Of a stretch of 46,266 bases of DNA, positions 21,411 to 37,585 are shown piece by piece. The DNA lies in IMG/VR virus record IMGVR_UViG_2671180743_000008; one strand, given 5' to 3'. The notes under the pieces were generated by a model, which was not told where the DNA came from, did not search any database, and saw only the letters and a list, made by a program, of their open reading frames with translations. Numbering within the stretch: position 1 is the stretch's first letter; each line of letters begins with the position of its first letter. The stretch comes from a virus. Taxonomy: Duplodnaviria; Heunggongvirae; Uroviricota; Caudoviricetes. Both the position numbers and the translations under genes were made by a program.

Positions 21411-21495
21411 CGCCGATAAGCGGGCCATTGAATTACTGGAACAGCGCAGGCTGCAACGACTGAACAACGAGGACAACAACCATGCTGAAAACTGA
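21205..21495 (+). CDS. lysC: LysC-like outer-membrane lipoprotein spanin (Rz1-like)
   Basis: Start at MHVPALFLTLALLSGCT (signal peptide plus lipobox LSGC); Pro-rich; embedded in and overlapping lysB in a different frame. Confidence 0.65.
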   Translation: MHVPALFLTLALLSGCTSTQNASAPPPSFRFIPEGLTAPVLPPPFPVTPSWGNIGIWSDSLMDALETCNADKRAIELLEQRRLQRLNNEDNNHAEN

Positions 21496-21949
21496 TTCCC
21501 TGCGTGAAGCCATGACCCGTTCATGCCGGTGGTGTCATGCCAACCCGGAAAAATTCACCATTTTCGTGGAGAGCGGCAACATTGAAACGACCGGAGAAAC
21601 CCCATCGTTTGTTTACCGCTATCAGATAGTGATGTTTGTCATGGATTACGCCGGAGAGCTGGACGACCTCACGCTGCCGCTGCTGGCGTGGTTATCCGAA
21701 AATCAGCCACAGTTGTTGCTCAATCCGGAGCGTAATCAGGACATCAAATTTTCCGCCGTTATCAATGACGATGACAGCGCCGATCTCCTGTTTACGCTCC
21801 CCCTGCGGGAACGCGTTCGCATCACGCGCAGCAGTCAGGGCACACCGCAGGCAGAACACCTGCCGGAGCCAAAACCCCGCCTGCCCTCTTCCGAAGGCGA
21901 CTGGTCGCATGTATTCCAGGATGTGACGTGGGGGGAAAGCGATGGATAA
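21482..21949 (+). CDS. R: Tail completion protein R
   Basis: 155 aa; size and position match P2 gpR. Confidence 0.8.
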   Translation: MLKTDSLREAMTRSCRWCHANPEKFTIFVESGNIETTGETPSFVYRYQIVMFVMDYAGELDDLTLPLLAWLSENQPQLLLNPERNQDIKFSAVINDDDSADLLFTLPLRERVRITRSSQGTPQAEHLPEPKPRLPSSEGDWSHVFQDVTWGESDG

Positions 21950-22577
21950 GGCATTCACCCGCGTGGATGAAACCTTTGAGGCTATCCGCGACAGCCTGAA
22001 TCAGCAGGCCATTAATAACATCGCCAGAAAGCTGGCACAGGATTTACGCCGCGCCCAGCAGGCGCGTATCCGGTCACAGAAAGCGCCGGACGGGACCGCA
22101 TGGACACCACGCAGACGCCGCGTAACCCGGATACAGGAGCGCATTCGCTTTATCTGGAATAACGAAGCACGCACGCTGAAAAACTGGCATCACGACACGG
22201 GGAAATACGGGCGAACCATCACCGGGTGGGATGAGGATAAAAACAATATCCGCACGTTTTACCGGGATGACATCGACCGTTTTCTGGAAATACGCACCCG
22301 GCGCATCAACCAGGACAGCACCAGGCGCGTCTCCATGTTCGTAAAACTGCGCACCGCCCGCTACCTGAAAGCCCGTGCAGATGCTTCCGGTGTGACGGTG
22401 GGTTACAGCGGCGTGGCCGCACGTATTGCACGCGTTCATCAGTTCGGTGAGCGCGATCAGGTTGCGCCGGGCATTTTCACCGATTACCCGGTACGTGAGC
22501 TGCTGGGTATCAGCCAGGCAGATGAGCGCCTGATTTATAACACGGTGCTGGGCCGGATTGCGGAGGCTGTACGATGA
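21942..22577 (+). CDS. S: Tail completion / virion morphogenesis protein S
   Basis: 211 aa; overlaps the R stop; P2 gpS position. Confidence 0.75.
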   Translation: MDKAFTRVDETFEAIRDSLNQQAINNIARKLAQDLRRAQQARIRSQKAPDGTAWTPRRRRVTRIQERIRFIWNNEARTLKNWHHDTGKYGRTITGWDEDKNNIRTFYRDDIDRFLEIRTRRINQDSTRRVSMFVKLRTARYLKARADASGVTVGYSGVAARIARVHQFGERDQVAPGIFTDYPVRELLGISQADERLIYNTVLGRIAEAVR

Positions 22578-23155
22578 GCGCAGAACTCATGCGACTGCTG
22601 AGCAATATCATCCGCACCGGGATCATCTCTGAAGTTGATGAGGAATCCTGGTGCGTGCGCGTTCGCAGCGGCGAACTGGAAACAGGCTGGCTGCGCTGGA
22701 ACACCACGCGCGCGGGAGACTTCAACGTGTGGTTTCCGCCATCACCAGGCGAACAGGTGGCAATTGCCTGCATCGGCGGCAACCCGGAAACCGCCATGAT
22801 AATCGGCAGCCTGTGGAGTGATGCCATTCCGGCACCCGGCAAAAGCCTGAAAGAAATCGTGGTCAGCGCGCCGGACGGCGCGGTGTTCCGCTACGACGCG
22901 GACGCAGGCGCACTGAGCGCAAGCGGCATGAAAACGGCCACTTTGCAGGCATCCATCAGCGTGACACTGAACACGCCTGTCGTGGAATGCACAGACCTTC
23001 TGAGAACAGCGACGCTTGACGTCACAAAAGGGGGAACGATGAGCGGCAATATCACGCACAGCGGCGGCGATTTCACCTCAAACGGCATCACAGTGCATAC
23101 GCATAAGCACGGTGGCGTTAAAGGTGGCAGCGATTCGACAGGAGGCCCGCAGTGA
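22574..23155 (+). CDS. V: Baseplate assembly protein V (spike)
   Basis: 193 aa; start overlaps S; P2 gpV position. Confidence 0.85.
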   Translation: MSAELMRLLSNIIRTGIISEVDEESWCVRVRSGELETGWLRWNTTRAGDFNVWFPPSPGEQVAIACIGGNPETAMIIGSLWSDAIPAPGKSLKEIVVSAPDGAVFRYDADAGALSASGMKTATLQASISVTLNTPVVECTDLLRTATLDVTKGGTMSGNITHSGGDFTSNGITVHTHKHGGVKGGSDSTGGPQ

Positions 23156-23502
23156 CAACCCGCTACACAGGAATGAACCCGGACGGGACGGGAAACCTGA
23201 ACGATATGGCGCACCTGAAACAGTCAGTCAGGGACATCCTGACCACCCCGCTGGCAAGCCGGGTTATGCGACGGGAATATGGCAGCCTTGTGCCTGATTT
23301 GATTGACGAACCCATGAATAACACCACGCGTCTGCAATGCATGAGTGCTACCGTGATTGCACTGACACGATGGGAACCACGCATTGCCCTGAACGCCATC
23401 GACGTTGTCTGGAAGGCAGGAGGCCACGCCGGGGTGACGCTGTCGGGCACTGTCATGCAGACCATGCAGAATGTTGAATTAACCATCACGCTGAGGGAGT
23501 AA
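23152..23502 (+). CDS. W: Baseplate protein W (gp25-like)
   Basis: 116 aa; start overlaps V; P2 gpW position. Confidence 0.85.
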   Translation: MTTRYTGMNPDGTGNLNDMAHLKQSVRDILTTPLASRVMRREYGSLVPDLIDEPMNNTTRLQCMSATVIALTRWEPRIALNAIDVVWKAGGHAGVTLSGTVMQTMQNVELTITLRE

Positions 23503-23505
23503 ATC

Positions 23506-24402
23506 ATGCCTGCCGTTGACCTTTCCCAGTTACCGGAACCCGCCATCATCGCGGAGCCTGACTTTGAGGCAATTCTGGCTGACACAAAGGCCATGATGAT
23601 TGCAGCTTATCCCGCCGAACAGCGTGAAGTCGTCTCCGCCGCACTGGAACTGGAATCGGAACCCCTGAACGTTATCGCTCAAACCATGTCGTTTCGTGAA
23701 ATGCTGTTACGCCAGCGGGTCAATGAGGCCGCACGCGCCTGCATGTTGAGCCACAGCGCCGGAACAGACCTGGACAACCTCGCGGGCAATATGAACACAA
23801 AGCGCCTGGTTATCACTCCGGCAACGGATACCACCGACGTGGTGATGGAGAACGACACCTCGCTGAGACTGCGGGCGCAGCGGGCGTATGACGGCCTGAG
23901 TGTTGCAGGCCCGTCAGGCGCATACGAGTATTTTGCCCGCAGCGCCAGCGGTCTGGTGCGCGATGCGCGGGCCATCAGTCCGTCTCCGGCAAATGTGACG
24001 GTTTCCATCCTGTCCACTGAGGGCGACGGCACAGCAACGGAGGCGTTGCTTAATACCGTTCGCGCCGTTCTGAATGCAGAGGATACCCGCCCGGTGGCCG
24101 ACCGCCTGACCGTACAGAGTGCCAGAATCGTGACATGGCGGCTGAATGCAAAACTGTACTTTTACCCCGGTCCGGAATCCGAACCTATTCTGGCTGCGGC
24201 TGAATCGTCGTTCAGGAAGTGGCTGGCTGAGCAGGGGCTTATCGGTCAGGACGTGGCGTTGTCCGCCATTGCTGCCGCACTGCATGTGCACGGTGTGCAA
24301 CGCGTGGAGATAATCGAACCCACACAGAATATGGCCATCAGCGACATACAGGCGGCGCGCTGTGAGTCATTCACCATCAGCGAAGGTGGGCGTAATGAGT
24401 AA
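23506..24402 (+). CDS. J: Baseplate assembly protein J
   Basis: 298 aa; P2 gpJ size and position. Confidence 0.85.
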   Translation: MPAVDLSQLPEPAIIAEPDFEAILADTKAMMIAAYPAEQREVVSAALELESEPLNVIAQTMSFREMLLRQRVNEAARACMLSHSAGTDLDNLAGNMNTKRLVITPATDTTDVVMENDTSLRLRAQRAYDGLSVAGPSGAYEYFARSASGLVRDARAISPSPANVTVSILSTEGDGTATEALLNTVRAVLNAEDTRPVADRLTVQSARIVTWRLNAKLYFYPGPESEPILAAAESSFRKWLAEQGLIGQDVALSAIAAALHVHGVQRVEIIEPTQNMAISDIQAARCESFTISEGGRNE

Positions 24403-24925
24403 TTCACTGTTACCACCATCAGCCAGCAATTTCATGCGTTGTGCCGAAGCCGTCGGAACACGCATTACAGACATTCCGGCAGACCTCAACACGCTGTGGT
24501 CGCCGGACACCTGCCCGGTGCATCTGCTGCCTTATCTCGCCTGGGCGTTTTCCGTTGACCGCTGGGATCGCAACTGGCCGGAAGAGACAAAGCGACAGGT
24601 GATTCGTGATGCATGGCTGATACACCGACACAAAGGAACCATCAGCGCCCTGCGACGGGCCATTGAGCCGCTGGGATACCTCATTCGCGTGTCTGAGTGG
24701 TGGGAGTTCAACGGCGAACCCGGAACATTCAAGATTGATGTTGGCACGCTGGACAGTGGCGTGACGGAGGAAATGTATCTGGAAATGGAGCGGTTGATTG
24801 CTGATGCCCGCCCGGTCAGCCGCCACATGACAGGGCTGAATATCATTCAGGAGATTCAGGGAGATATTTTCGCGGCAGCAGCAACTTACGACGGTGAAGT
24901 CATTACCATTTATCCGGACGATTAA
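24395..24925 (+). CDS. I: Baseplate/tail protein I
   Basis: Start at MSNSLLPP (ATG at 24395, overlapping J); 176 aa, the size of P2 gpI. Confidence 0.85.
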   Translation: MSNSLLPPSASNFMRCAEAVGTRITDIPADLNTLWSPDTCPVHLLPYLAWAFSVDRWDRNWPEETKRQVIRDAWLIHRHKGTISALRRAIEPLGYLIRVSEWWEFNGEPGTFKIDVGTLDSGVTEEMYLEMERLIADARPVSRHMTGLNIIQEIQGDIFAAAATYDGEVITIYPDD

Positions 24926-24927
24926 GC

Positions 24928-26964
24928 ATGAGTACCACAACACGAAAATTTAAAACCATTATCACCGATACGGGTGCAAAAAAATTAGCGCAGGCAACCG
25001 CGCCAGATGGGAAACCTGTCCGCCTGACACATATGGCCGTGGGTGACGGCGGCGGTACTTTACCCACGCCAGACAGTAAGCAGACCCGTCTTGTGCATGA
25101 GGTGTGGCGACATACCGTTAATCGCGTCACCCTGGACGCAACACATCAGAACCACATTATTGCGGAGCTGGTTATTCCTCCTGAAACGGGCGGATTCTGG
25201 ATCCGGGAAATTGGTGTGTTTGATGAGCACGGCGATTTGATCGCGGTAGGCAATACTGCCGAAAGTTACAAGCCAACCGTTGCCGAAGGATCCGGACGTG
25301 CACAAACATTTCGCACCATTCTGACCGTATCCAGCACTGCCACTGTGGCGCTTACCGTGGATAACACCATGGTGATGGCCACAGTGAATTACGTGGATGA
25401 CAAACTGAAAGAGCATGAACAGTCACGACGTCACCCGGACGCCTCGCTGACCGCAAAAGGCCTTGTCCAGCTCAGCAACGCCACCAACAGCACGTCTGAA
25501 ACGCTGGCAGCGACACCAAAAGCCGTTAAGGCAGTAATGGATGAAACGAACAAGAAAGCCCCATTAAACAGCCCGGCACTGACCGGAACGCCAACAACAC
25601 CAACTGCGCGACAGGGAACGAATAATACCCAAATCGCAAGCACGGCTTTCGTTATGGCTGCGATTGCCGCACTTGTAGACTCTTCGCCTGATGCACTGAA
25701 CACACTGAACGAGCTGGCGGCGGCGCTGGGCAACGACCCGAATTTTGCGACCACCATGACTAACGCGCTTGCGGGTAAGCAACCGAAAGATGCCACTCTG
25801 ACGGCGCTGGCGGGGCTTGCTACTGCGGCAGACAGGTTTCCGTATTTTACGGGGAATGATGTCGCCAGCCTGGCAACCCTGACAAAAGTCGGGCGGGATA
25901 TTCTTGCGAAATCGACCGTTGCCGCCGTTATCGAATACCTCGGTTTACAGGAAACGGTAAACAAGGCTGGTAACGCCGTGCAAAAAAATGGCGATACGTT
26001 GTCCGGTGGACTTACTTTTGAAAACGACTCAATCCTTGCCTGGATTCGAAATACTGACTGGGCAAAGATTGGGTTTAAAAATAATTCGGATGCAGACACC
26101 GATTCCTACATGTGGTTTGAAACAGGCAACAACGGCAATGAATATTTCAAATGGAGACACCGCATCATTGGCACCCGGCCTAAAGACCTGATGAATCTTA
26201 AATGGAATGCTTTGTCTGTTCTTGTTGAAGCCCTTTTCAGCAGTGAAGTGAAAATATCGACAGTCAATGCACTGAGGATATTTAATTCATCTTTTGGTGC
26301 CATTTTTCGTCGTTCTGAAGAATGCCTGCATATCATCCCTACACGAGAGAATGAAGGGGAAAATGGTAATATAGGGCCACTACGCCCCTTTACGCTTAAT
26401 CTCAGAACTGGCCGGATAAGCATGGGGCATGGTCTTGATGTTACAGGGGATATATTTGCAAACCGTTTTGCAATTAACAGTAGTACCGGCATGTGGATTC
26501 ATATGCGTGACCAGAATGTTATTTTGGGACGTAATGCGGTATCCACTGATGGTGCTCAGGCTTTGCTCCGTCAGGACCATGCCGACCGCAAATTTATGAT
26601 TGGCGGTCTGGGAAATAAGCAATTTGGCATCTACATGATTAATAACTCAAGGACAGCCAATGGCACCGATGGTCAGGCGTACATGGATAATAACGGGAAC
26701 TGGCTTTGCGGCTCGCAAGTTATTCCCGGCAACTATGGCAATTTTGATTCCAGATATGTGAAAGATGTTCGACTTGGTTCACAGCAATATTATGGAGTGA
26801 ACAACTGGCAAACATGGAATTTTCAGTGCCCGTCAGGCTATGTACTGACGGGGATTAACGTACAGGATACCGGAAAAAACTCTGCCGATAATATTGCAGG
26901 CGTTCATTACAGGCCAGTGCAAAAGTATATAAATGGCACTTGGTATAATGTGGCGAGTATTTAA
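24928..26964 (+). CDS. H: Tail fibre protein H, copy 1 (constant N-terminus plus tip variant A)
   Basis: 678 aa; conserved fibre shaft motifs ([62 protein letters not shown]); contains a gix-like site at 25928..25953. Confidence 0.9.
25928..25953. other. gix/pix-like invertase crossover site inside H copy 1
   Basis: TTATCGAATACCTCGGTTTACAGGAA; differs at 2 of 26 positions from the reverse complement of the invertase-proximal sites; lies exactly where the constant and variable parts of H meet. Confidence 0.75.
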
Positions 26965-26965
26965 T

Positions 26966-27493
26966 ATGATGCACTTAAAGAACATAAAAGCAGGTAATGC
27001 TAAAACAGTGGAGCAGTATGAGTTAACAAAGAAGCACGGAGTCATCTGGCTTTACTCTGAGGACGGAAAAAACTGGTATGAGGAAGTGAAGAACTTTCAG
27101 CCAGACACAATAAAGATTGTTTACGATGCAAATAATATTATTGTCGCCATCACCAAAGATGCCTCCACGCTTAACCCTGAAGGTTATAGCGTCGTTGAGG
27201 TTCCTGATATTACAGCTAATCGTCGTGCTGATGATTCCGGTAAGTGGATGTTTAAGGACGGAGCTGTGGTTAAACGGATTTATACGGCTGACGAACAGCA
27301 ACAACAGGCCGAATCACAAAAGGCCGCATTGCTTTCCGAAGCTGAATCAGTCATCCAGCCGCTGGAACGCGCTGTCAGGCTGAATATGGCGACGGACGAG
27401 GAACGCACACGACTGGAAGCATGGGAACGCTACAGTGTTCTGGTCAGCCGTGTGGATACGGCAAAGCCAGAATGGCCACAAAAGCCTGAGTAA
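26966..27493 (+). CDS. G: Tail fibre assembly protein G/Tfa (partner of tip A)
   Basis: Start at [10 protein letters not shown], 2 nt after the H stop; 175 aa; C-terminal 60 residues identical to those of the tfa at 34453..34980. Confidence 0.85.
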
Positions 27494-27498
27494 AAATT

Positions 27499-27518
27499 AA
27501 GGCCCGATATCGGGCCTT
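27499..27518. terminator. Hairpin terminator after G
   Basis: AAGGCCCGATATCGGGCCTT perfect hairpin; a near-identical hairpin recurs at 34985..35004. Confidence 0.6.
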
Positions 27519-27525
27519 ACGCAGT

Positions 27526-28632
27526 GTGAACACCGTTGGCAAATCGGCATTCGTGGAGGCTGTCGGTCGGGCGAGCGATGATGCGGAAGGTTACTTGGAT
27601 TTTTTCAAAGGAGAGATAGGGAAAACACATCTGGCTCAGGAGCTGTGGACGCAGATTGATAACGGTCAGCTTGCGCCTGACCTGGCTGAAATCAGGACGT
27701 CCATTACGGATGTCAGCAATGAAATCACGCAGACCGTCAATAAGAAACTGGAAGACCAGAGTGCGGCAATTCAGCAGATACAGAAGGTTCAGGTTGATAC
27801 AAATAATAATCTGAACAGCATGTGGGCTGTGAAGCTGCAACAGATGAAGGACGGACGCCTTTATATTGCGGGTATCGGTGCCGGTATTGAGAATACGCCA
27901 GCAGGAATGCAGAGTCAGGTGCTGCTGGCGGCAGACAGGATTGCGATGATTAATCCTGCGAATGGCAACACAAAGCCGATGTTTGTTGGTCAGGGCGATC
28001 AGATATTCATGAACGACGTGTTCCTGAAACGCCTGACGGCTCCCACCATTACCAGCGGCGGTAATCCTCCGGCATTTTCCCTGACACCGGACGGAAAACT
28101 GACCGCTAAAAATGCAGATATCAGTGGCAGTGTGAATGCGAACGCCGGGACGCTCAACAATGTCACAATTAATGAGAACTGTCAGATTAAGGGGAAACTG
28201 TCAGCCAACCAGATTGAAGGCGATATAGTCAAAACAGTGGGTAAGGCTTTTCCGCGGGACTCCCGGGCACCGGAGCGGTGGCCATCAGGGACCATTACCG
28301 TCAGGATTTATGACGATCAGCCTTTTGACAGGCAAATTGTTATTCCGGCGGTGGCATTCAGCGGCGCTAAACATGAGCGGGAGAATAACGATATTTATTC
28401 GTCATGCCGCCTGATAGTACGGAAAAACGGTGCTGAAATTTATAACCGTACCGCGCTGGATAATACGCTGATTTACAGTGGTGTTATTGATATGCCAGCT
28501 GGTCGCGGCCACATGACGCTGGAGTTTTCGGTGTCAGCATGGCTGGTGAATAACTGGTATCCCACAGCAAGTATCAGCGATTTGCTGGTTGTGGTGATGA
28601 AGAAAGCCACCGCAGGCATCAGTATCAGCTGA
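27526..28632 (+). pseudogene. Lambdoid host-specificity protein J, C-terminal fragment
   Basis: Open frame starts abruptly right after the G terminator with no plausible start or RBS (first codon GTG); followed by lom, stf and tfa in the lambda order J-lom-stf-tfa; family call from memory of lambda J. Confidence 0.6.
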
Positions 28633-28699
28633 ATTTTATAACCCATATACGGGCGCCAGAAATGGCGCCTTTTTTATTGCAGAAAAGCGAGAGGTAATT

Positions 28700-29299
28700 A
28701 TGCGTAAAGTTTGTGCAGCCATTTTGTCCGCAGCCATTTGCCTGGCCGTATCCGGTGCGCCTGCATGGGCGTCTGAACATCAGTCCACACTGAGCGCGGG
28801 GTATCTTCATGCCCGTACGAACGCTCCCGGCAGCGATAATCTGAACGGGATTAACGTGAAATACCGTTATGAGTTTACGGACGCGCTGGGGCTGATTACG
28901 TCCTTCAGTTATGCCAATGCTGAGGATGAGCAAAAAACGCACTACAGCGATACCCGCTGGCATGAAGATTCCGTGCGTAACCGCTGGTTCAGCGTGATGG
29001 CGGGGCCGTCTGTACGCGTGAATGAATGGTTCAGCGCGTATGCGATGGTGGGTGTGGCTTACAGCCGTGTGTCGACTTTCTCCGGGGATTATCTCCGCGT
29101 AACTGACAACAAGGGGAAAACGCACGATGTGCTGACCGGAAGTGATGACGGTCGCCACAGCAACACGTCTCTGGCGTGGGGGGCTGGCGTGCAGTTTAAC
29201 CCGACCGAATCCGTGACCATTGACCTTGCTTATGAAGGTTCCGGTAGTGGTGACTGGCGAACGGATGCATTTATTGTTGGTATCGGATACCGTATCTGA
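28700..29299 (+). CDS. lom: Lom (Ail/PagC/Lom-family outer-membrane beta-barrel protein)
   Basis: 199 aa with signal peptide; INVKYRYEFTD, VMAGP, SAYAMVGVA and C-terminal AYEGSGSGDWRTDAFIVGIGYRI line up with lambda Lom. Confidence 0.9.
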   Translation: MRKVCAAILSAAICLAVSGAPAWASEHQSTLSAGYLHARTNAPGSDNLNGINVKYRYEFTDALGLITSFSYANAEDEQKTHYSDTRWHEDSVRNRWFSVMAGPSVRVNEWFSAYAMVGVAYSRVSTFSGDYLRVTDNKGKTHDVLTGSDDGRHSNTSLAWGAGVQFNPTESVTIDLAYEGSGSGDWRTDAFIVGIGYRI

Positions 29300-29404
29300 C
29301 AACAGACGCCGATTTATCTTCTGTAAATATTGTTATGATACGCAGGTTCATCCACCTTATGGGGTGAACTGCGTTTGAGGAAACGTAAAGTTACACTGTC
29401 CTGA

Positions 29405-29437
29405 AGCCCGTGGCGTCACTGCTGCGGGCTTTTTTTA
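29405..29437 (+). terminator. Rho-independent terminator after lom
   Basis: AGCCCG ... CGGGCT stem followed by TTTTTTT. Confidence 0.65.
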
Positions 29438-29450
29438 TTGGTGGAAAAGT

Positions 29451-32207
29451 ATGACAGTAAAAATTTCTGGCGTGCTTAAAGATGGCACAGGAAAACCAGT
29501 ACAGAACTGCACCATTGTGCTGAAGGCCAGACGAACCAGCAGCACGATGGTGGTGAACACGGTGGCCTCTGAAAATCCGGATGAAGCCGGACGTTACAGC
29601 ATGGATGTTGAGCATGGTCAGTACAGCGTCACCCTGCTGGTTGAAGGTTTTCCGCCTTCACATGCCGGGACCATTACCGTCTATGAAGGTTCCAGACCAG
29701 GTACGCTGAATGATTTTCTCGGTGCCATGACGGAGGATGATGTCCGACCGGAGGCACTGCGCCGCTTTGAGCAGATGGTGGAAGAGGTGTCACGTAACGC
29801 CTCCGCGGTTGCACAGAATACGGCAGCCGCGAAAAAATCAGCCAGCGAGGCGGCAACTCATGCAACCGATGCTGCAGCCTCAGCACGTGCCGCCAGCACG
29901 TCAGCCGGACAGGCCGCGTCGTCGGCTCAGTCAGCGTCTTCCAGCGCAGGAACGGCATCGACAAAGGCCCGTGAAGCAGCAAAAAGTGCTGCTGCAGAGT
30001 CATCAAAAAGCGCGGCAGCTACCAGCGCCAGTGCCGCGAAAACGTCAGAAACGAATGCCGCAGCATCACAAAAATCGGCAGCCACTTCTGCATCCACAGC
30101 GACCACGAAGGCGTCAGAAGCTGCCACCTCGGCACGGGGTGCGGCGGCCTCAAAAGAGGCAGCGAAATCTTCAGAAACGAATGCATCATCAAGTGCCAGT
30201 AGTGCAGCTTCCTCGGCAACGGCGGCAGGAAATTCCGCGAAGGCGGCAAAAACGTCCGAGACGAACGCTAAGTCTTCTGAAACAGCAGCGGGACAGAGCG
30301 CCTCAGCTGCGGCAGGTTCAAAAACAGCGGCTGCATTATCTGCCAGTGCCGCGTCAACAAGTGCCGGGCAGGCCTCAGCCAGTGCCACCGCCGCCGGAAA
30401 ATCGGCAGAAAGCGCCGCATCATCCGCTTCAACAGCCACAACGAAGGCTGGCAAAGCCACTGAGCAAGCCACTGCAGCAGCGAGGTCTGCTTCTGCAGCA
30501 AAAACCTCTGAAACAAATGCAAAGACTTCAGCAGACAATGCTGCTTCCTCTAAGGCAGCAGCCGCATCGTCAGCCAGTTCAGCGGCGTCATCGGCATCAT
30601 CTGCGTCTGCTTCAAAAGATGAGGCGACCAGACAAGCGTCAGCAGCGAAAGGTAGTGCCACGACAGCAACAACGAAAGCATCAGAGGCGGCAGGCAGTGC
30701 GACGGCTGCATCTCAGAGCAAAGTTGCTGCTGAATCCGCGGCAACGCGCGCCGAGACAGCAGCAAAACGGGCAGAGGATATTGCATCCGCCGTGGCGCTG
30801 GAGGATGCGAGCACGACGAAAAAGGGGATAGTACAGCTCAGCAGTGCGACCAACAGCACTTCCGAGTCACTGGCGGCAACGCCAAAAGCGGTTAAGGCGG
30901 TAATGGGTGAAACGAACAAGAAAGCGCCCTTAAATAGTCCTGCACTGACCGGAACGCCAACAACACCAACTGCGCGACAGGGAACGAATAATACCCAAAT
31001 CGCAAGCACGGCTTTCGTTATGGCTGCGATTGCCGCCCTTGTAGATTCGTCACCTGATGCACTGAACACGCTGAACGAGCTGGCTGCGGCGCTGGGCAAC
31101 GACCCGAATTTTGCGACCACCATGACTAACGCGCTTGCGGGTAAGCAACCGAAAGATGCCACCCTGACGGCGCTGGCCGGACTTACTACTGCGGCAGGCA
31201 AGTTTCCGTATTTTACGGGGAATGATGTCGCCAGCCTGGCAACCCTGACAAAAGTCGGGCGGGATATTCTTGCGAAATCGACCGTTGCTGCCGTTATCGA
31301 ATACCTCGGTTTACAGGAAACGGTAAACAAGGCTGGTAACGCCGTTCAGCGTTCCGGCGATAAAATGACCGGAGAACTGAAAATTGGCACGGTGAATGCG
31401 CTGCGAATTTTCAATGATACCTTCGGTCTAATTTTCCGTCGTTCAGAAGATTTTCTTCATTTCATTCCGACGGCTGAAGGACAAGGCGAAAACGGTAATA
31501 TCGGCCCATTAAGGCCATTCGCTATAAATCTGAGAACAGGTGCTATATCTGTCAGCCACGGGGCCAAAATTAAAGGAGGTCTAGCTATTGGAGCTACTGA
31601 TAACGCACTGGGTGAAAACTCCATTGTTCTGGGAGATAACGACACCGGATTTAGGCAAGATGGAGATGGTATTATTAGCTTCTATTCAAATGGTTCGCGC
31701 ATCGGACATATTGATGAGTTAGGATTACATCTTTATAAAGATATTGAATCTAATGGCAGCAATTTTAGATTAAAAAGTAATTACCGCCACCACATTACAT
31801 TCGCCAACGAAGACGGAAGAATTCGTATGTTTTTGTGGAAAGATAACGGTGGTGATGGTGTTCATATTAATAACGGTTCAGATGGTGGTGGTGATTTCAT
31901 TTTTAAAACAGATGGGGGATTTGCGCTGGGAAGTGGTGCGCAAGTTGCGTCTAGTGGCGATATTTATGGTTCAGTGTGGGAAAACAACTGGTTAAGCACA
32001 TGGCTGCATAATCATGTCGTTCGGGATATTCGTCTTGGCAGCATTGAATATAAAAACGTATGGCGCGACTACGGCTTTGGCGATGCGTCAGGTTATGTTT
32101 TAACAGCCGCAATTAACAGCAATGCGGATGATATTGTCGACACTGTTGCCAGAAGGCCAATTCAGAAATTGATTGGGGGAATATGGTACAACGTGGGGAG
32201 TGTTTAA
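29451..32207 (+). CDS. stf: Lambdoid side tail fibre protein Stf (tip variant B)
   Basis: 918 aa; long Ala/Ser/Thr-rich repetitive shaft; C-terminal half homologous to H but not identical to copy 1 in the shaft (GIVQLSSATNSTSES versus [15 protein letters not shown]); contains a gix-like site. Confidence 0.85.
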   Translation: MTVKISGVLKDGTGKPVQNCTIVLKARRTSSTMVVNTVASENPDEAGRYSMDVEHGQYSVTLLVEGFPPSHAGTITVYEGSRPGTLNDFLGAMTEDDVRPEALRRFEQMVEEVSRNASAVAQNTAAAKKSASEAATHATDAAASARAASTSAGQAASSAQSASSSAGTASTKAREAAKSAAAESSKSAAATSASAAKTSETNAAASQKSAATSASTATTKASEAATSARGAAASKEAAKSSETNASSSASSAASSATAAGNSAKAAKTSETNAKSSETAAGQSASAAAGSKTAAALSASAASTSAGQASASATAAGKSAESAASSASTATTKAGKATEQATAAARSASAAKTSETNAKTSADNAASSKAAAASSASSAASSASSASASKDEATRQASAAKGSATTATTKASEAAGSATAASQSKVAAESAATRAETAAKRAEDIASAVALEDASTTKKGIVQLSSATNSTSESLAATPKAVKAVMGETNKKAPLNSPALTGTPTTPTARQGTNNTQIASTAFVMAAIAALVDSSPDALNTLNELAAALGNDPNFATTMTNALAGKQPKDATLTALAGLTTAAGKFPYFTGNDVASLATLTKVGRDILAKSTVAAVIEYLGLQETVNKAGNAVQRSGDKMTGELKIGTVNALRIFNDTFGLIFRRSEDFLHFIPTAEGQGENGNIGPLRPFAINLRTGAISVSHGAKIKGGLAIGATDNALGENSIVLGDNDTGFRQDGDGIISFYSNGSRIGHIDELGLHLYKDIESNGSNFRLKSNYRHHITFANEDGRIRMFLWKDNGGDGVHINNGSDGGGDFIFKTDGGFALGSGAQVASSGDIYGSVWENNWLSTWLHNHVVRDIRLGSIEYKNVWRDYGFGDASGYVLTAAINSNADDIVDTVARRPIQKLIGGIWYNVGSV
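31294..31319. other. gix/pix-like crossover site inside stf
   Basis: TTATCGAATACCTCGGTTTACAGGAA, same sequence and orientation as the site in H. Confidence 0.75.
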
Positions 32208-32208
32208 G

Positions 32209-32535
32209 ATGATGCACCTGAAAAATATTAAGGCCGGGAATCCGAAAACACCGGAACAATACCAGCTAACTAAAAAACCGCTGGGATACCTCATTCGCGT
32301 GTCTGAGTGGTGGGAGTTCAACGGCGAACCCGGAACATTCAAGATTGATGTTGGCACGCTGGACAGTGGCGTGACGGAGGAAATGTATCTGGAAATGGAG
32401 CGGTTGATTGCTGATGCCCGCCCGGTCAGCCGCCACATGACAGGGCTGAATATCATTCAGGAGATTCAGGGAGATATTTTCGCGGCAGCAGCAACTTACG
32501 ACGGTGAAGTCATTACCATTTATCCGGACGATTAA
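32209..32535 (+). pseudogene. Chimeric ORF: tfa N-terminus (23 codons) fused in frame to the C-terminal part of gene I
   Basis: [23 protein letters not shown] then PLGYLIRVSEWWEF...ITIYPDD, which is identical to the end of gene I at about 24665..24925; junction at about 32277/32278. Confidence 0.75.
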
Positions 32536-32537
32536 GC

Positions 32538-34451
32538 ATGAGTACCACAACACGAAAATTTAAAACCATTATCACCGATACGGGTGCAAAAAAATTAGCG
32601 CAGGCAACCGCGCCAGATGGGAAACCTGTCCGCCTGACACATATGGCCGTGGGTGACGGCGGCGGTACTTTACCCACGCCAGACAGTAAGCAGACCCGTC
32701 TTGTGCATGAGGTGTGGCGACATACCGTTAATCGCGTCACCCTGGACGCAACACATCAGAACCACATTATTGCGGAGCTGGTTATTCCTCCTGAAACGGG
32801 CGGATTCTGGATCCGGGAAATTGGTGTGTTTGATGAGCACGGCGATTTGATCGCGGTAGGCAATACTGCCGAAAGTTACAAGCCAACCGTTGCCGAAGGA
32901 TCCGGACGTGCACAAACATTTCGCACCATTCTGACCGTATCCAGCACTGCCACTGTGGCGCTTACCGTGGATAACACCATGGTGATGGCCACAGTGAATT
33001 ACGTGGATGACAAACTGAAAGAGCATGAACAGTCACGACGTCACCCGGACGCCTCGCTGACCGCAAAAGGCCTTGTCCAGCTCAGCAACGCCACCAACAG
33101 CACGTCTGAAACGCTGGCAGCGACACCAAAAGCCGTTAAGGCAGTAATGGATGAAACGAACAAGAAAGCCCCATTAAACAGCCCGGCACTGACCGGAACG
33201 CCAACAACACCAACTGCGCGACAGGGAACGAATAATACCCAAATCGCAAGCACGGCTTTCGTTATGGCTGCGATTGCCGCACTTGTAGACTCTTCGCCTG
33301 ATGCACTGAACACACTGAACGAGCTGGCGGCGGCGCTGGGCAACGACCCGAATTTTGCGACCACCATGACTAACGCGCTTGCGGGTAAGCAACCGAAAGA
33401 TGCCACTCTGACGGCGCTGGCGGGGCTTGCTACTGCGGCAGACAGGTTTCCGTATTTTACGGGGAATGATGTCGCCAGCCTGGCAACCCTGACAAAAGTC
33501 GGGCGGGATATTCTTGCGAAATCGACCGTTGCCGCCGTTATCGAATACCTCGGTTTACAGGAAACGGTAAACAAGGCTGGTAACGCCGTTCAGCGTTCCG
33601 GCGATAAAATGACCGGAGAACTGAAAATTGGCACGGTGAATGCGCTGCGAATTTTCAATGATACCTTCGGTCTAATTTTCCGTCGTTCAGAAGATTTTCT
33701 TCATTTCATTCCGACGGCTGAAGGACAAGGCGAAAACGGTAATATCGGCCCATTAAGGCCATTCGCTATAAATCTGAGAACAGGTGCTATATCTGTCAGC
33801 CACGGGGCCAAAATTAAAGGAGGTCTAGCTATTGGAGCTACTGATAACGCACTGGGTGAAAACTCCATTGTTCTGGGAGATAACGACACCGGATTTAGGC
33901 AAGATGGAGATGGTATTATTAGCTTCTATTCAAATGGTTCGCGCATCGGACATATTGATGAGTTAGGATTACATCTTTATAAAGATATTGAATCTAATGG
34001 CAGCAATTTTAGATTAAAAAGTAATTACCGCCACCACATTACATTCGCCAACGAAGACGGAAGAATTCGTATGTTTTTGTGGAAAGATAACGGTGGTGAT
34101 GGTGTTCATATTAATAACGGTTCAGATGGTGGTGGTGATTTCATTTTTAAAACAGATGGGGGATTTGCGCTGGGAAGTGGTGCGCAAGTTGCGTCTAGTG
34201 GCGATATTTATGGTTCAGTGTGGGAAAACAACTGGTTAAGCACATGGCTGCATAATCATGTCGTTCGGGATATTCGTCTTGGCAGCATTGAATATAAAAA
34301 CGTATGGCGCGACTACGGCTTTGGCGATGCGTCAGGTTATGTTTTAACAGCCGCAATTAACAGCAATGCGGATGATATTGTCGACACTGTTGCCAGAAGG
34401 CCAATTCAGAAATTGATTGGGGGAATATGGTACAACGTGGGGAGTGTTTAA
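32538..34451 (+). CDS. H: Tail fibre protein H, copy 2 (recombinant: H copy 1 N-terminus plus stf tip B)
   Basis: 637 aa; identical to copy 1 up to [11 protein letters not shown], then identical to the stf C-terminus ([13 protein letters not shown]...WYNVGSV); the switch coincides with the gix-like site. Confidence 0.85.
33538..33563. other. gix/pix-like crossover site inside H copy 2
   Basis: TTATCGAATACCTCGGTTTACAGGAA, same orientation as the other two intragenic sites. Confidence 0.75.
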
Positions 34452-34452
34452 G

Positions 34453-34980
34453 ATGATGCACCTGAAAAATATTAAGGCCGGGAATCCGAAAACACCGGAA
34501 CAATACCAGCTAACTAAAAAAGCGGGCGTGGTATGGCTCTTTTGCGAAGATGGCAAAAACTGGTATGAGGAACAAAAGAATTTTCAGCCAGACACCATAA
34601 AAATTGCTTACGATGAGAACAACATCATCGTTGCTGTCAGTAAAGACGTTTCAACTATTAATCCTGAAGGGCTAAGCATAGTTGAAGTTCCTGATATTAC
34701 GGCAAATCGTCACGCAGACAATAACGGAAAATGGATGTTTCTGGATGGTAAAGTAGTAAAGAGGGAATATACAGAACAGGAACTGCAACAACAGGCCGAA
34801 TCACAAAAGGCCGCATTGCTTTCCGAAGCTGAATCAGTCATCCAGCCGCTGGAACGCGCTGTCAGGCTGAATATGGCGACGGACGAGGAACGCACACGAC
34901 TGGAAGCATGGGAACGCTACAGTGTTCTGGTCAGCCGTGTGGATACGGCAAATCCTGAATGGCCACAAAAGCCTGAATAA
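34453..34980 (+). CDS. tfa: Tail fibre assembly protein Tfa (partner of tip B)
   Basis: Start at [23 protein letters not shown]; 175 aa; follows H copy 2 with a 1-nt gap. Confidence 0.85.
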
Positions 34981-34984
34981 AAAT

Positions 34985-35004
34985 TAAGGCCCGATAGCGG
35001 GCCT
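34985..35004. terminator. Bidirectional hairpin terminator between convergent tfa genes
   Basis: AAGGCCCGATAGCGGGCCTT lying between the stops of the plus-strand tfa (34980) and the minus-strand tfa (35009). Confidence 0.6.
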
Positions 35005-35008
35005 TCTC

Positions 35009-35542
35009 TCATTCTGGTTGTTCGGGAAACGTTACTGGCAGGCTGGAGGTGTCTGTGGATTCGACCTTCTGCGCATAGAGCATCCACTCGGTTAATTTTT
35101 GTTTATTCTCATCGGAAATGATGCCCAGCTGTAGCTGAGAGTCCCACAGCTGGGTTTTATCCCTGACGAGCTGCAGCAGGCTCTGCTTTTCATTTTCCGC
35201 TTGTTGCCTTTGCTCTTCCTCGGTATAAGTTCGCTTTATCACCGCACCATCTTTGAACATCCAGTTGCCCGAAATATCAGCCCGGCGATTTGCTGTAATA
35301 TCAGGCAACTCAACGACACTTAAACCTTCTGGATTAATTGCTGATACATCCTTGTCTATAGCAATAATTATTCCCTCAACTGTGTAAGCCAGTTTTATTG
35401 TATCCTCCTGAAAGTTTTTTAATTCCTCATGCCAATTTTTTCCATCTTCGGACCATAACCAGATAACATCAAAATTCTTTGTTAGCTGGTATTGTTCAAC
35501 GGTTTTTGGATTACCTGCGACAATGTTTTTTAAATGCTGCAT
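35009..35542 (-). CDS. Tail fibre assembly protein Tfa (inverted orientation, partner of tip C)
   Basis: 177 aa; [23 protein letters not shown]-terminus typical of Tfa; opposite strand to the expressed fibre genes, as in Mu G / e14 P invertible segments. Confidence 0.8.
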
Positions 35543-35694
35543 GATTATACCTGCGATACGTTATACCATGTTCCGTTAATTAACTTTTGTATTGGTCTGA
35601 ATACTGCCGGATCATCACCATCGACTTCACCGATAATACCAAGCCCCGTGATTACATGGCCTGATTTTTCATACATCACGCCTTTCTTCATGGT

Positions 35695-36306
35695 CTAAAC
35701 AACTCGTGTGCCAAGTCTGACATCTCTCACATAGCGGGAATCAAAGTTACCGTAATCCGAGGGATTAACACGTCCCGTAATATTTATGGTTTTATTACTT
35801 TGAATGCTTCCGGAGACAAAGCGCATAACATGGACGTTATTAGCATAAACATCCAGATTACCATCGCCTTTTTGTTTAAAGCCCGTGTCATTATCACCCA
35901 ATACAATCGAATTACCGCCAAGAGCACTGGATGTTCCGATACCCAGTGCACCATTCAGTTGACCACCAGATAACGGCAGTGCACCAACATCTCCTGCTGA
36001 AGGTTTTCTGGTGGTGTAAAATTCGGACCAGTCGGCTTCAAAACCATAACCATCACGGGCTGAACGATAAAAAATACCGCCATTTTTATAATTAATCCGA
36101 AACTGAGCTGCAGGACAACTTCCTTCTCCCATATAAAAATGAATAATTAACGTTGATGCACCACTAATAGTTGCGTTATAGGCTCCGCTACTCCAGTTCC
36201 ATCCAACTGCTTTATCATTCGCAACGGTGCTTCCTGTTTTCCCTAAGGCAAACGCACCAACATGACTTGCTTTTAATGTGATATCGGAGGAACCATCAAA
36301 AGCCAC
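35695..36306 (-). pseudogene. Alternative tail-fibre tip segment (variant C), promoterless and probably frameshifted
   Basis: Fibre C-terminal domain motifs ([26 protein letters not shown]); the frame ends prematurely at ...DVRLGTRVV*, while the expected fibre end (...[17 protein letters not shown]) is encoded in another frame at about 35543..35690. Confidence 0.65.
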
Positions 36307-36453
36307 ATTGCTTATTTTCCTGGCAGTTTTTAATTTTGCAGCTGTAGAAGCATTGCCGGATAGTTCACCAGAAAGGCCACCGCTGAATGTTTGTCGATTA
36401 GTCCAGGTATTCGCTGTACTGAGTAACGGTATTTTCTCCCCGCTTGTGCCGAG

Positions 36454-36479
36454 TTCTCGTAAACCGAGGTTTTAGATAA
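36454..36479. other. gix/pix-like crossover site (inverted orientation), next to the truncated invertase
   Basis: TTCTCGTAAACCGAGGTTTTAGATAA, close to the Mu gix sequence as I recall it (TTCCTGTAAACCGAGGTTTTGGATAA); inverted relative to the three intragenic sites. Confidence 0.75.
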
Positions 36480-36533
36480 TGGCGGTTTCTGGCCTGCATG
36501 GCATGATTTGCGCTTTTGGACGGGAGATTCAGC

Positions 36534-36716
36534 GTGCTGATTGGCTATGTAAGGGTATCAACAAATGACCAGAATACAGACCTGCAACGAAACGCTCTTG
36601 TTTGTGCAGGATATGAACAAATATTTGAAGATAAATTAAGCGGAACAAGGACAGGCCGACCTGGATTAAAACGTGCTTTAAAGCGCCTTCAAAAAGGTGA
36701 CGCACTGGTTGTCTGA
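36534..36716 (+). pseudogene. Truncated Gin/Pin-family serine DNA invertase (N-terminal about 60 codons)
   Basis: GTG start then VLIGYVRVSTNDQNTDLQRNALVCAGYEQIFEDKLSG...KGDALVV*; versus the intact copy a TGG to TGA change gives a premature stop, after which the sequence diverges. Confidence 0.8.
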
Positions 36717-36914
36717 AAACTGGACTGACTGGGTCACTGTATGCGGCATCTTGTCGTGCTGGTGGTGGAAGCCTAGAAAAAGTATCGGGTGTTGCTGAAC
36801 CGTGTTGATACATCAACTGCACCTGATATTGAGTGGCCTACGAACCCTGTCAGGGAGTAATCATTGGGATTATGCCGCAGCACGTCTTAAGCAAGAACGT
36901 GCTGCGGTTGGATG

Positions 36915-37583
36915 CTATTTTTTCCCTGAAGCGGAAAACATTACTACAGTACCTTGAACCCTGGTTTTAACATTCTCGAAATGCTCTGAGAGTATATGTG
37001 TTAAGCCTTCTTCGGAATCTTTTGTGTTTGAAAAGATGCCTTTCTGATTGTAAATGCGCATCAGTTTTTGACCGAAGCTATTGTGCACAACTCCATCGCC
37101 AAGAATTGTGGCTCCGTATAGAGTTCCATCAATTAATTTTTGTTTATTCTCGTCGGAAATAATGCCCAGCCGTAGCTGTGAGTCCCATAGCTGGGTTTTA
37201 TCCCTGACGAGCTGTAGCAGGCTTTGCTTTTCATTTTCCGCTTGTTGCCTCTGCTCTTCCCCGGTATAAGTTCGCTTTATCACTACGCCATCTTTGAACA
37301 TCCATTTACCTGAAATATCAGCCCGGCGATTTGCTGTAATATCAGGAACCTCAACGACGCTTGCGCCTTCCGGATTAATTGCTGAAACATCCTTTTCAAT
37401 ACAAATAATAACGCCGTTGTGGTCATAGACCATTTTCAACGTATCAGGCTGAAAGTTCTTTTGTTCCTCATACCAGTTTTTCCCATCCTCTGTATAAAGC
37501 CATTTGATGTTAAATTGTTTCGTTAGCTGGTATTGCTCTTTTGTTTCAGGATTACCAGCAGAAATGTTTTTTAAGTGCATCAT
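36915..37583 (-). CDS. Tail fibre assembly protein Tfa (inverted orientation, partner of tip D), atypical C-terminus
   Basis: 222 aa; the first 160 or so residues are Tfa-like ([22 protein letters not shown]...); the last 45 or so are unrelated to other Tfa ends and run into the deletion scar next to the truncated invertase. Confidence 0.7.
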
Positions 37584-37585
37584 CG

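What the first reader, a model, noticed from the sequence alone, without database searches (positions are those of the whole stretch)
28700..29299. lom moron: Ail/Lom-family outer-membrane protein carried by the prophage
Lom/Ail/PagC-family proteins are expressed from lysogens and have been linked to adhesion and serum resistance. Here lom has its own strong terminator (29405..29437) and lies between a dead J fragment and stf, so it is probably expressed independently of phage late transcription.
Basis: partly seen in the sequence, partly recalled or inferred. Interest (0 to 1): 0.4.

Follow-up and report, generated by a model that had tools for sequence, protein, structure and literature searches.

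The report
Ordinary lom gene, misassembled surroundings
The gene is a genuine, intact copy of the long-known phage outer-membrane protein Lom, but its apparent position beside a 'dead' J fragment inside a P2-like prophage is almost certainly a scaffolding artefact of this draft assembly, so nothing new is shown.

Summary
ORF 28700-29299(+) is a real Ail/Lom-family gene (Pfam PF06316, E 1e-125, full length). It is 41% identical to lambda Lom and 99% identical to Lom of lambdoid prophages in closed E. coli genomes. The hairpin plus U-run after it (29403-29440) is real. Both are conserved at lambdoid J-lom-stf loci, lambda included.

The context does not hold up. The window is a whole draft contig named Shigella sonnei. 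Its backbone is a P2-like prophage between btuC and ihfA. Block 27520-37130 (J 3' end, lom, stf and beyond) is bounded by abrupt joins. These joins coincide to the base with the two ends of a stand-alone sister contig. They carry 0-2 orphan bases, where sister scaffolds have runs of N. They are absent from closed genomes and from IMG/VR. In closed genomes this lom allele follows a full-length J.

Independent expression in the lysogen is plausible only by analogy with lambda; no promoter was found.

One small oddity: the protein ends in Ile, whereas every other family member sampled ends in Phe. This allele is widespread in S. sonnei-named records.

Verdict: already known, low interest.

The parts
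27520..28632 (+). 3' 1.1 kb of a lambdoid tail-tip gene J (ORF 27526-28632, 368 aa). The left edge is an abrupt join to the P2-like tfa terminator.
   Evidence: Pfam Phage_Tail_Tip, Ig_GpJ_C. Equals residues 786-1159 of full-length J at 98.9%. Sister contigs L007 and L010 start exactly at 27520. L006, L002, L109 and L111 continue with J sequence upstream of that point.
28651..28678 (+). Intrinsic-terminator-like hairpin plus U-run between J and lom, ending 21 nt before the lom ATG
   Evidence: -15.7 kcal/mol, z -3.9. Conserved in 77 related loci. On the 7 distinct variants, 100% of cells pair and 2 of 8 pairs show compensatory changes. Lambda has a hairpin at the same place.
28689..28694 (+). 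Shine-Dalgarno GAGAGG, 5 nt before the ATG
   Evidence: Read from the sequence. Invariant in lambda and PhiR40_1 and in the IMG/VR loci.
28700..29299 (+). lom coding sequence, 199 aa. Predicted Sec signal peptide is residues 1-24 (MRKVCAAILSAAICLAVSGAPAWA, 28700-28771). The last codon is ATC (Ile, 29294-29296), where relatives have TTC (Phe).
   Evidence: Pfam PF06316 1e-125. PDB lambda Lom 9wso_C 1e-47, OmpX and Ail about 1e-19. 41% identical to lambda Lom. 197/199 identical to WP_001233154.1 of E. coli VR50. Terminal residue.
29403..29440 (+). Intrinsic-terminator-like hairpin plus U-run after lom, 10 nt before the stf ATG
   Evidence: -20.5 kcal/mol. The same intergenic type occurs in 23 of 77 related loci. 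The other (lambda-like) type has its own hairpin plus U-run.
29451..32207 (+). Side tail fibre gene stf (918 aa) with an Ala/Ser-rich middle region
   Evidence: Pfam phage_tail_N 3.6e-69, gp37_trimer.
32278..34521 (+). P2-derived sub-block (3' part of gene I, then tail-fibre gene H2). It is set into the lambdoid arm 68 nt into tfa and is absent from sister contigs L004-L007 and L111.
   Evidence: Self-repeat 32278-33592 = 24668-25982 at 99.9%. The join has no homology. Sister contigs run from 32277 straight to 34522.
34522..37130 (+). Rest of the lambdoid arm: tfa, inverted tfa', alternative fibre C-terminus, a copy of the crossover repeat, and the 3' part of a SAM-methyltransferase gene. The right edge is an abrupt join back into the P2-like tfa'.
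   Evidence: L007 ends exactly at 37130. L006 continues into the methyltransferase. Closed genomes VR50 and 755 have stf-tfa-methyltransferase(-).
27519..27519 (.). Orphan base A at join A. It matches neither the P2-like sequence (G) nor either J allele (T or C).
   Evidence: Sister scaffold L016 has a single N at an analogous stf|P2 join.
37131..37132 (.). Two orphan bases AA at join C
   Evidence: window compared with L006, L007 and L018.

Best explanation
What it is. 28700-29299 encodes an ordinary Lom-type outer-membrane protein of the Ail/Lom/OmpX family of small beta-barrels. It belongs to the J-lom-stf region of a lambda-like prophage.

How it most likely works. Shown here: homology, an N-terminal Sec-type signal peptide, a strong ribosome-binding site, and an intrinsic terminator on each side. 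Inferred: the protein is exported through Sec and inserted into the outer membrane by the BAM machinery. During lytic growth it would be transcribed as part of the Q-antiterminated late operon, which reads through both terminators. In the lysogen it is probably made at a low level, as reported for lambda lom, from a start site that cannot be identified in the sequence.

The context. Its apparent location inside a P2-like prophage, next to a J gene cut to its last 368 codons, is an artefact of scaffolding and gap closing in this draft assembly. Block 27520-37130 is a separate contig of a lambdoid prophage that was dropped into the 63-nt spacer between tfa and tfa' of the P2-like prophage's invertible tail-fibre segment. 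A further P2-derived piece (32278-34521) was dropped inside that block.

The terminal Ile. It is a single TTC-to-ATC change typical of S. sonnei-named records. It may lower the efficiency of outer-membrane assembly. This is inferred and untested.
For: Identity of the gene.

Flanking terminators and their conservation.

What the contig is: the window is the whole of contig CXDL01000021.1, and the exact protein is named Shigella sonnei by its sources.

Evidence for the artefact:
- Closed chromosome CP026836.1 is 99.99% identical over window 16928-27518. After a 63-nt spacer it continues with the tfa' sequence the window resumes at 37133 (the BLAST match is reported from 37112). L022, L024 and L025 do the same.
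- Sister contig L007 (7367 bp) starts at window 27520 and ends at 37130.
- L006 carries J sequence upstream of 27520 and a methyltransferase gene beyond 37130.
- There are orphan bases at joins A and C.
- Sister records carry N runs of 1-21 at analogous P2|lambdoid joins: L002 3614 (11 N), L016 4938 (1 N), L003 8593 (11 N), L004 7642 (1 N), L009 1669 (1 N), L015 12441 (8 N).
- No closed E. coli genome out of 5426 spans join A.
- None of the three joins is found in IMG/VR, whereas the natural tfa-to-tfa' join is, in 5 contigs.

Natural context: G-T-H-M-L-K-I-J(1157 aa)-lom-stf-tfa-methyltransferase in closed genomes VR50 and 755. IMG contigs L109 and L111 show a lambdoid tail module upstream of the Ile-ending allele.

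Expression in lambda lysogens: PMC1151598, PMC7067206.
Against: - No reads were available, so the artefact is inferred and not demonstrated.
- The window itself contains no N.
- Join B (32277|32278) has no orphan base and does not coincide with a contig end seen elsewhere.
- The hybrid fibre gene H2 recurs in four draft contigs, so some of the P2/lambdoid mosaicism is real biology.
- No promoter for lom was found. The upstream terminator leaves only about 21 nt before the ATG, so transcription in the lysogen rests entirely on analogy with a 41%-identical homologue.
- The structure model was too poor to use (pLDDT 38.6).
Confidence: 0.85

Rival explanations
1. The joins are real. A lambdoid J'-lom-stf-tfa block was captured by illegitimate recombination into the invertible tail-fibre segment of the P2-like prophage. 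In that case lom really does sit beside a truncated J and is carried by a P2-like element.
For: The contig contains no N. The joins share no k-mer, so a plain de Bruijn path cannot have produced them. Tail-fibre genes of P2-like and lambdoid phages share 93-98% identical stretches here and are known hot spots of exchange. H2 is a genuine P2/lambdoid-type hybrid seen in four drafts.
Against: It needs three separate illegitimate joins within 10 kb. Two of them fall exactly on the two ends of an independent sister contig. Orphan bases sit where sister scaffolds have N. Each sister assembly shows a different P2|lambdoid join, which is unexpected among such close relatives: the lom block is 99.6-99.98% identical at the DNA level. 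The joins are absent from closed genomes and IMG/VR, while the natural join is present.
Confidence: 0.08
2. lom here is a decaying passenger of a dead prophage, not a working conversion gene. The Phe-to-Ile change at the family-invariant C-terminal residue weakens recognition by BAM, so little or no Lom reaches the outer membrane.
For: All 100 sampled homologues and cluster members that reach the natural C-terminus end in F. F199 is nearly invariant in a 38-sequence alignment, the query being the exception. 74 of 77 IMG/VR relatives end in F. The C-terminal Phe/Tyr is part of the signal bound by BamA (review PMC3706956). In contigs with the Ile allele, the neighbouring J has a stop at codon 68 and a frameshift, so the prophage is defective.
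Against: The ORF is otherwise intact: 197/199 identical to the common E. coli allele. The Ile allele is on at least 754 contigs (743 + 11), so it has persisted without further damage. Ile is hydrophobic, and from general knowledge of porin mutants such changes reduce assembly rather than abolish it. No experiment bears on this protein.
Confidence: 0.25
3. lom is a self-contained moron with its own promoter and terminator, transcribed in the lysogen independently of late transcription because the J upstream is dead.
For: Terminators lie on both sides. Lambda lom is transcribed in lysogens (PMC1151598, PMC7067206). G+C content is slightly higher than the neighbours: 54.8% against 50-52%.
Against: No promoter-like site is found on the + strand. 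There is only about 21 nt between the upstream U-run and the ATG. The truncated J is probably an artefact. The hairpin-RBS-lom-hairpin layout is shared by phages with intact J, so it owes nothing to the death of J.
Confidence: 0.35

Closest known systems
Lom of lambdoid prophages of E. coli (e.g. WP_001233154.1 in strains VR50 and 755; Lom of phage PhiR40_1 and of Stx-converting phages)
   Same: 197/199 residues identical. The same J-hairpin-RBS-lom-hairpin-stf layout, with 93-99% DNA identity.
   Different: A16 instead of S16 in the signal peptide. Ile instead of Phe as the last residue.
Bacteriophage lambda Lom (NP_040601; PDB 9wso chain C)
   Same: Same family, same position between J and the side-tail-fibre gene, a hairpin plus U-run on both sides, and a conserved GAGAGG ribosome-binding site. 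Reported in the outer membrane and transcribed in lysogens (PMC1151598).
   Different: Only 41% identical. Lambda Lom is 7 residues longer and has different loops. The lom-stf spacer is 151 nt here against 64 nt in lambda.
OmpX (E. coli), Ail (Yersinia), and by family PagC/Rck (Salmonella)
   Same: Full-length sequence homology to the solved 8-stranded barrels: OmpX 1qj8/2m06 and Ail 3qra, E about 1e-19. Both match Pfam OMP_b-brl.
   Different: Those are chromosomal or plasmid genes with their own regulation. Lom has longer extracellular loops (about 175 against 148 mature residues). Serum resistance and invasion are shown for Ail and Rck, not for Lom (my own knowledge; PMC1151598 credits serum resistance in lambda to Bor).
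Lom of podovirus phi24B and the 24B_1 small RNA downstream of it
   Same: An Ail/Lom-family gene in a Stx phage.
   Different: Only weak similarity, confined to the 3' end of the coding sequence (68.8% over 125 nt). The 428-nt region that encodes 24B_1 has no counterpart in 29300-29450 (PMC4426718).

Membership tests
Ail/Lom family (Pfam PF06316) | Match to the family profile above the curated cut-off, over its full length | tested here: met
   417.5 bits against a cut-off of 23, E 1e-125, profile positions 1-198 of 199.
Ail/Lom family (Pfam PF06316) | Homology to solved 8-stranded beta-barrels (OmpX, Ail, lambda Lom) | tested here: met
   phmmer against PDB: 9wso_C 1e-47, OmpX 1.1e-19, Ail 1.8e-19, all covering the mature protein.
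Ail/Lom family (Pfam PF06316) | Predicted 8-stranded barrel fold | tested here: inconclusive
   AlphaFold2 on a shallow 38-sequence alignment gave mean pLDDT 38.6. The model was not used and no fold search was run.
Ail/Lom family (Pfam PF06316) | N-terminal Sec signal peptide | tested here: met
   By inspection only: MRK, then a hydrophobic core, then AWA|SE. It aligns with the lambda Lom leader. No signal-peptide predictor was available.
Ail/Lom family (Pfam PF06316) | C-terminal beta-signal ending in an aromatic residue (Phe) | tested here: not met
   The protein ends ...GIGYRI. All 100 sampled relatives that reach the natural C-terminus end in F, as do 74 of 77 IMG/VR relatives. The difference from PhiR40_1 is TTC to ATC.
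Ail/Lom family (Pfam PF06316) | Localisation in the outer membrane | not testable with these tools
   Needs cell fractionation.
lom locus of lambdoid phages | Lies between the tail-tip gene J and the side-tail-fibre gene stf, on the same strand | tested here: met
   J C-terminal domains lie upstream and phage_tail_N downstream. The order is the same in lambda, PhiR40_1, VR50 and 755.
Moron (extra gene with its own signals, expressed from the prophage) | Own terminator downstream | tested here: met
   29403-29440.
Moron (extra gene with its own signals, expressed from the prophage) | Own promoter upstream | tested here: not met
   No sigma-70-like site on the + strand in 27000-30000. A consensus scan cannot exclude weak or other-sigma promoters.
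Moron (extra gene with its own signals, expressed from the prophage) | Base composition differing from its neighbours | tested here: inconclusive
   lom 54.8% G+C, J fragment 50.4%, stf 52.5%, window 52%.
Moron (extra gene with its own signals, expressed from the prophage) | Absent from the same position in related phages | not tested
   All loci gathered here were selected for having lom.
Moron (extra gene with its own signals, expressed from the prophage) | Transcribed in the uninduced lysogen | not testable with these tools
   Reported for lambda lom only (PMC1151598, PMC7067206).

The most novel reading that the evidence does not exclude
The three abrupt joins are genuine. In that case a lambda-type J'-lom-stf-tfa block, with its own remnant of an invertible segment, has been captured inside the Gin/Pin-type invertible tail-fibre segment of a P2-like prophage. 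That would move a lysogenic-conversion gene between two unrelated phage families. A lesser novelty that is also not excluded: the S. sonnei-wide Phe-to-Ile change at the last residue is a natural loss-of-assembly (pathoadaptive) allele of Lom.
Probability: 0.07. Interest if true: 0.4.

Novelty: already known. Interest (0 to 1): 0.08.

Why it matters
As biology it matters little. lom between J and stf, bracketed by terminators and expressed from lambda lysogens, is textbook, and this copy is 99% identical to alleles in about a thousand E. coli records.

The useful result is a warning. In this family of draft assemblies, prophage tail-fibre regions are stitched together by scaffolding. 'Truncated' genes, tandem J'-lom copies, and mosaic P2/lambda prophages read from these contigs should not be taken as real.

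The Ile-for-Phe terminal residue gives a cheap natural test of how strictly a small barrel needs its C-terminal Phe, but it is a minor point.

Tried and rejected
1) The 24B_1 micro-RNA described between lom and vb_24B_43 of phi24B (PMC4426718). That region has no homology to 29300-29450. Rejected.

2) Rfam, on the whole window at gathering scores and on 28400-29600 at E <= 1. No hit.

3) Promoter search. Nothing on the + strand. By eye, TATAAC at 28637-28642 has no usable -35 and lacks the final T. Not claimed.

4) AlphaFold2 with 38 close homologues gave pLDDT 38.6. It was unusable, so I ran no fold search and could not retrieve the description of PDB 9wso. Paper searches for 9WSO and 'Lom protein' found nothing relevant.

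5) Exact look-ups of the two ORFs that span joins B and C (32209-32535, 36915-37583) returned 'not on record', although the same tool lists them as called genes on this contig. Uninformative.

6) I first took the joins for de Bruijn mis-paths. This was rejected because the two sides share no k-mer. Scaffolding with gap closing fits better.

7) I first thought the Ile allele was confined to 11 contigs. A second allele with Ile is on 743 contigs. The tool had numbered the two proteins in the reverse of my input order, which I checked against the sequences themselves.

8) PMC3718152 (ribosome profiling of lambda) and PMC4424060 (lambda review) are not held.

Full report
**1. The observation.**
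ORF 28700-29299(+) is present as described, at 199 aa. It matches Pfam PF06316 (Ail_Lom) at E 1e-125 over profile positions 1-198 of 199. It also matches the general outer-membrane barrel model PF13505. Against solved structures it matches lambda Lom (9wso_C, 1e-47), OmpX and Ail (about 1e-19), each over the whole mature protein.

The N-terminus reads MRKVCAAILSAAICLAVSGAPAWA|SEHQ, which looks like a Sec signal peptide by inspection. A GAGAGG Shine-Dalgarno sequence lies 5 nt before the ATG. The 225-aa ORF on the opposite strand (28625-29302) is the usual shadow of a coding region.

The hairpin after lom is real. The stem is 29403-29432 (13 pairs) and is followed by TTTTTTTATT. It folds at -20.5 kcal/mol, z = -3.0. 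Upstream, ORF 27526-28632 carries only the C-terminal domains of the tail-tip protein J and equals residues 786-1159 of a full-length J. Downstream, 29451-32207 is a side-tail-fibre gene (phage_tail_N, 3.6e-69).

**2.
A second hairpin plus U-run lies between J and lom at 28651-28678 (8 pairs, 6 G-C; -15.7 kcal/mol, z = -3.9). The U-run ends 21 nt before the ATG.

In 77 related loci from IMG/VR this hairpin is always present. On the seven distinct variants every cell pairs. Two of the eight pairs show compensatory double changes (G-C to A-U, C-G to U-A). Sliding the partners drops pairing to 37-64%. This is modest evidence, because there are few variants.

Lambda itself, whose Lom is only 41% identical, has a hairpin plus U-run at the same two positions and the same GAGAGG. 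The lom-stf spacer comes in two types: the 151-nt type seen here (23 of 77 loci) and the 64-nt lambda type. Each has its own terminator-like hairpin.

The layout 'J, terminator, RBS, lom, terminator, stf' is therefore generic to lambdoid phages and owes nothing to the state of J. No sigma-70-like promoter is found on the + strand anywhere in 27000-30000. There is no room for one between the U-run and the ATG.

**3. What the window is.**
The window is the whole of contig CXDL01000021.1 of assembly GCA_001253115.1. Sources name the exact Lom protein Shigella sonnei. The left end (nlpC, btuD, btuE, btuC) is 99.7% identical to E. coli O26 chromosomes.

The backbone is a P2-like prophage between btuC and ihfA. 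It has the same gene order as in closed O26 strain RM8426: integrase, replication genes, portal and terminase (-), capsid, lysis, baseplate V-W-J-I, fibre H, tfa, then U-T-E-tube-sheath on the minus strand, then D.

Closed genomes that carry the identical H protein (678 aa) show what follows tfa: an inverted tfa', an alternative fibre C-terminus, and a Gin/Pin-type invertase. That is an invertible tail-fibre segment.

**4. The context is not trustworthy.**
Closed chromosome CP026836.1 is 99.99% identical to window 16928-27518. After a 63-nt spacer it continues with the tfa' sequence that the window resumes at 37133 (BLAST reports the match from 37112). L022, L024 and L025 do the same. Relative to these genomes the window carries an extra 9.6 kb, 27520-37130.

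The extra block has three abrupt joins with no shared sequence:
- Join A, 27519|27520: P2 tfa terminator | J codon about 790.
- Join B, 32277|32278: 68 nt into the lambdoid tfa | middle of P2 gene I.
- Join C, 37130|37131: inside a SAM-methyltransferase gene | inside P2 tfa'.

Sister contig L007, from another assembly of the same series, is 7367 bp long. It starts exactly at window 27520 and ends exactly at 37130. It is the inserted block minus the sub-block 32278-34521. L010 also starts at 27520. L006 has J sequence upstream of that point and continues past 37130 into the methyltransferase gene.

Join A carries one orphan base and join C two. These bases match neither side.

The sister records are scaffolds. 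They hold N runs of 1 to 21 exactly at their own odd P2|lambdoid or J'|J' joins: L002 3614 (11 N), L016 4938 (1 N), L003 8593 (11 N), L004 7642 (1 N), L009 1669 (1 N), L015 12441 (8 N). Each sister assembly joins P2 and lambdoid pieces at a different place.

No closed E. coli genome out of 5426 spans join A; every match breaks at the join. None of the three joins occurs in 2.9 million IMG/VR contigs. The natural tfa-to-tfa' join occurs in five.

The simplest reading is that a scaffolder placed a lambdoid contig into the P2-like prophage through shared tail-fibre repeats (93-98% identical stretches), and that gap closing then removed the Ns. I put this at about 0.9. It is an inference: I had no reads, the window has no N, and join B has no orphan base.

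**5. The natural home of this lom.**
In closed genomes VR50 and 755 a Lom that is 197/199 identical lies in a lambdoid tail module next to ompW'/yciE/trpA. The order is G, T, tape measure, M, L, K, I, J (1157 aa, intact), lom, stf, tfa, SAM-methyltransferase(-). The methyltransferase is what L006 runs into.

In sister contig L005 the same lom-stf-tfa leads to hok, pgsA and uvrC. In IMG contigs L109 and L111 and in L003, a full-extent lambdoid J has a stop at codon 68 and a frame change near codon 630. L109 and L111 carry the Ile-ending allele directly downstream of that J. In L003 the Ile-ending lom lies further downstream, beyond a scaffold gap.

J may therefore well be dead in this lineage, but as a point-mutated pseudogene, not as the stump seen in the window.

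**6. The one unusual residue.**
The protein ends ...GIGYRI. Its closest phage relative has TTC (Phe) where the window has ATC.

All 100 sampled homologues and cluster members that reach the natural C-terminus end in Phe. F199 is nearly invariant in a 38-sequence alignment, the query being the exception. 74 of 77 IMG/VR relatives end in Phe.

The window's exact protein is on 11 contigs. A second Ile-ending allele (A16S) is on 743 contigs, including whole chromosomes, with S. sonnei among its names. The Phe-ending allele (A16S, I199F) is on at least 998 contigs.

The C-terminal Phe/Tyr is part of the signal recognised by BamA (PMC3706956). The change could therefore lower assembly efficiency. 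However, Ile is hydrophobic, the allele has persisted, and nothing has been tested.

**7. Mechanism.**
Shown: family membership, export signal, ribosome-binding site, and flanking terminators. Inferred from established knowledge of lambda and of small barrels: Sec export, BAM insertion, and transcription with the Q-antiterminated late operon during lytic growth. Low-level transcription in the lysogen is reported for lambda lom (PMC1151598, PMC7067206). Adhesion to buccal cells is reported for lambda Lom (Vica Pacheco 1997, as cited in those papers). Serum resistance in lambda is attributed to Bor, not Lom (PMC1151598). Where transcription starts in the lysogen is unknown here.

**8. Comparison and verdict.**
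This is a member of the Ail/Lom family and of the lambdoid lom locus type. One family feature is not met: the terminal Phe. As a 'moron' it meets the terminator criterion. It fails a consensus promoter scan. On expression it cannot be judged here.

Nothing lies outside what is known. The finding is ordinary, and part of its stated rationale (dead J fragment, carriage by 'the prophage') rests on an assembly artefact. Interest 0.08; novelty: already known.

**9. Dead ends.**
These were the phi24B 24B_1 small RNA, Rfam, the structure model, literature on PDB 9wso, and exact look-ups of the join-spanning ORFs.

Noticed in passing
window 25924-27518 and 37133-39198: The P2-like prophage has a Gin/Pin-type invertible tail-fibre segment. 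The parts are a constant H N-terminus, H1 C-terminus plus tfa (+), tfa' and an alternative fibre C-terminus (-), and an invertase at 38611-39198 (Resolvase + HTH_7). Draft L015 shows the flipped orientation. Mixed orientations in the culture probably helped to tangle the assemblies.
   Followed up: partly
window 36459-36724 vs 38536-38801: A 266-bp repeat (95.9%) covers the inversion crossover region and the start of the invertase gene. The first copy belongs to the lambdoid arm, which therefore carries a remnant of its own stf-tfa/tfa'-stf'/pin-type invertible segment.
   Followed up: partly
window 32209-32535(+) and 36915-37583(-): Two ORFs span the suspect joins and are chimeras: tfa N-terminus (23 aa) fused to the P2 gpI C-terminus, and tfa' N-terminus fused to a SAM-methyltransferase C-terminus. 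Gene callers list both as ordinary genes on this contig.
   Followed up: yes
window 32538-34451: Fibre gene H2 (637 aa). Its N-terminus is 99.9% identical to the prophage's H. Its C-terminus is 97.7% identical to the C-terminus of the lambdoid stf. It is found only in four draft contigs. I could not tell whether it is a real third fibre copy or another product of the tangle.
   Followed up: partly
L109 6482-9933, L111 6483-9934, L003 4377-7846: In these contigs the lambdoid J gene has an in-frame stop at codon 68 and a frame change near codon 630, so the prophage is defective. L109 and L111 carry the Ile-ending lom directly downstream of this J. In L003 the gene directly downstream is a partial 91.5% lom copy, and the Ile-ending lom lies beyond a scaffold gap.
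   Followed up: yes
window 28661-28668 and related loci: The top of the J-lom terminator hairpin occurs in two forms that are reverse complements of each other (CAGAAATG in most loci, CATTTCTG in five). It looks as if the loop had been flipped.
   Followed up: no
window 29780-30900: The middle of stf is a roughly 370-residue Ala/Ser/Thr-rich low-complexity stretch. It throws long spurious ORFs in other frames (29737-30831 +, 29927-30661 -).
   Followed up: no
window 10824-12099: The P2-like prophage carries ParM-like segregation and partition genes, annotated as such in the O26 homologue. This hints at a possible plasmid-like stage or a stabilisation module.
   Followed up: no
PDB 9wso chain C: A solved structure of lambda Lom exists: one entry, in which two chains have this sequence, the example being chain C. 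I could find no paper for it and do not know what it is in complex with. It may hold new information on what Lom does.
   Followed up: partly
L003, L004, L009 (sister scaffolds): Apparent tandem J'-lom-J'-lom duplications in these records all sit across N runs (L003 8593, L004 7642 and 9021, L009 1669). They are scaffold joins between two J-lom alleles about 92% identical, not tandem repeats.
   Followed up: yes
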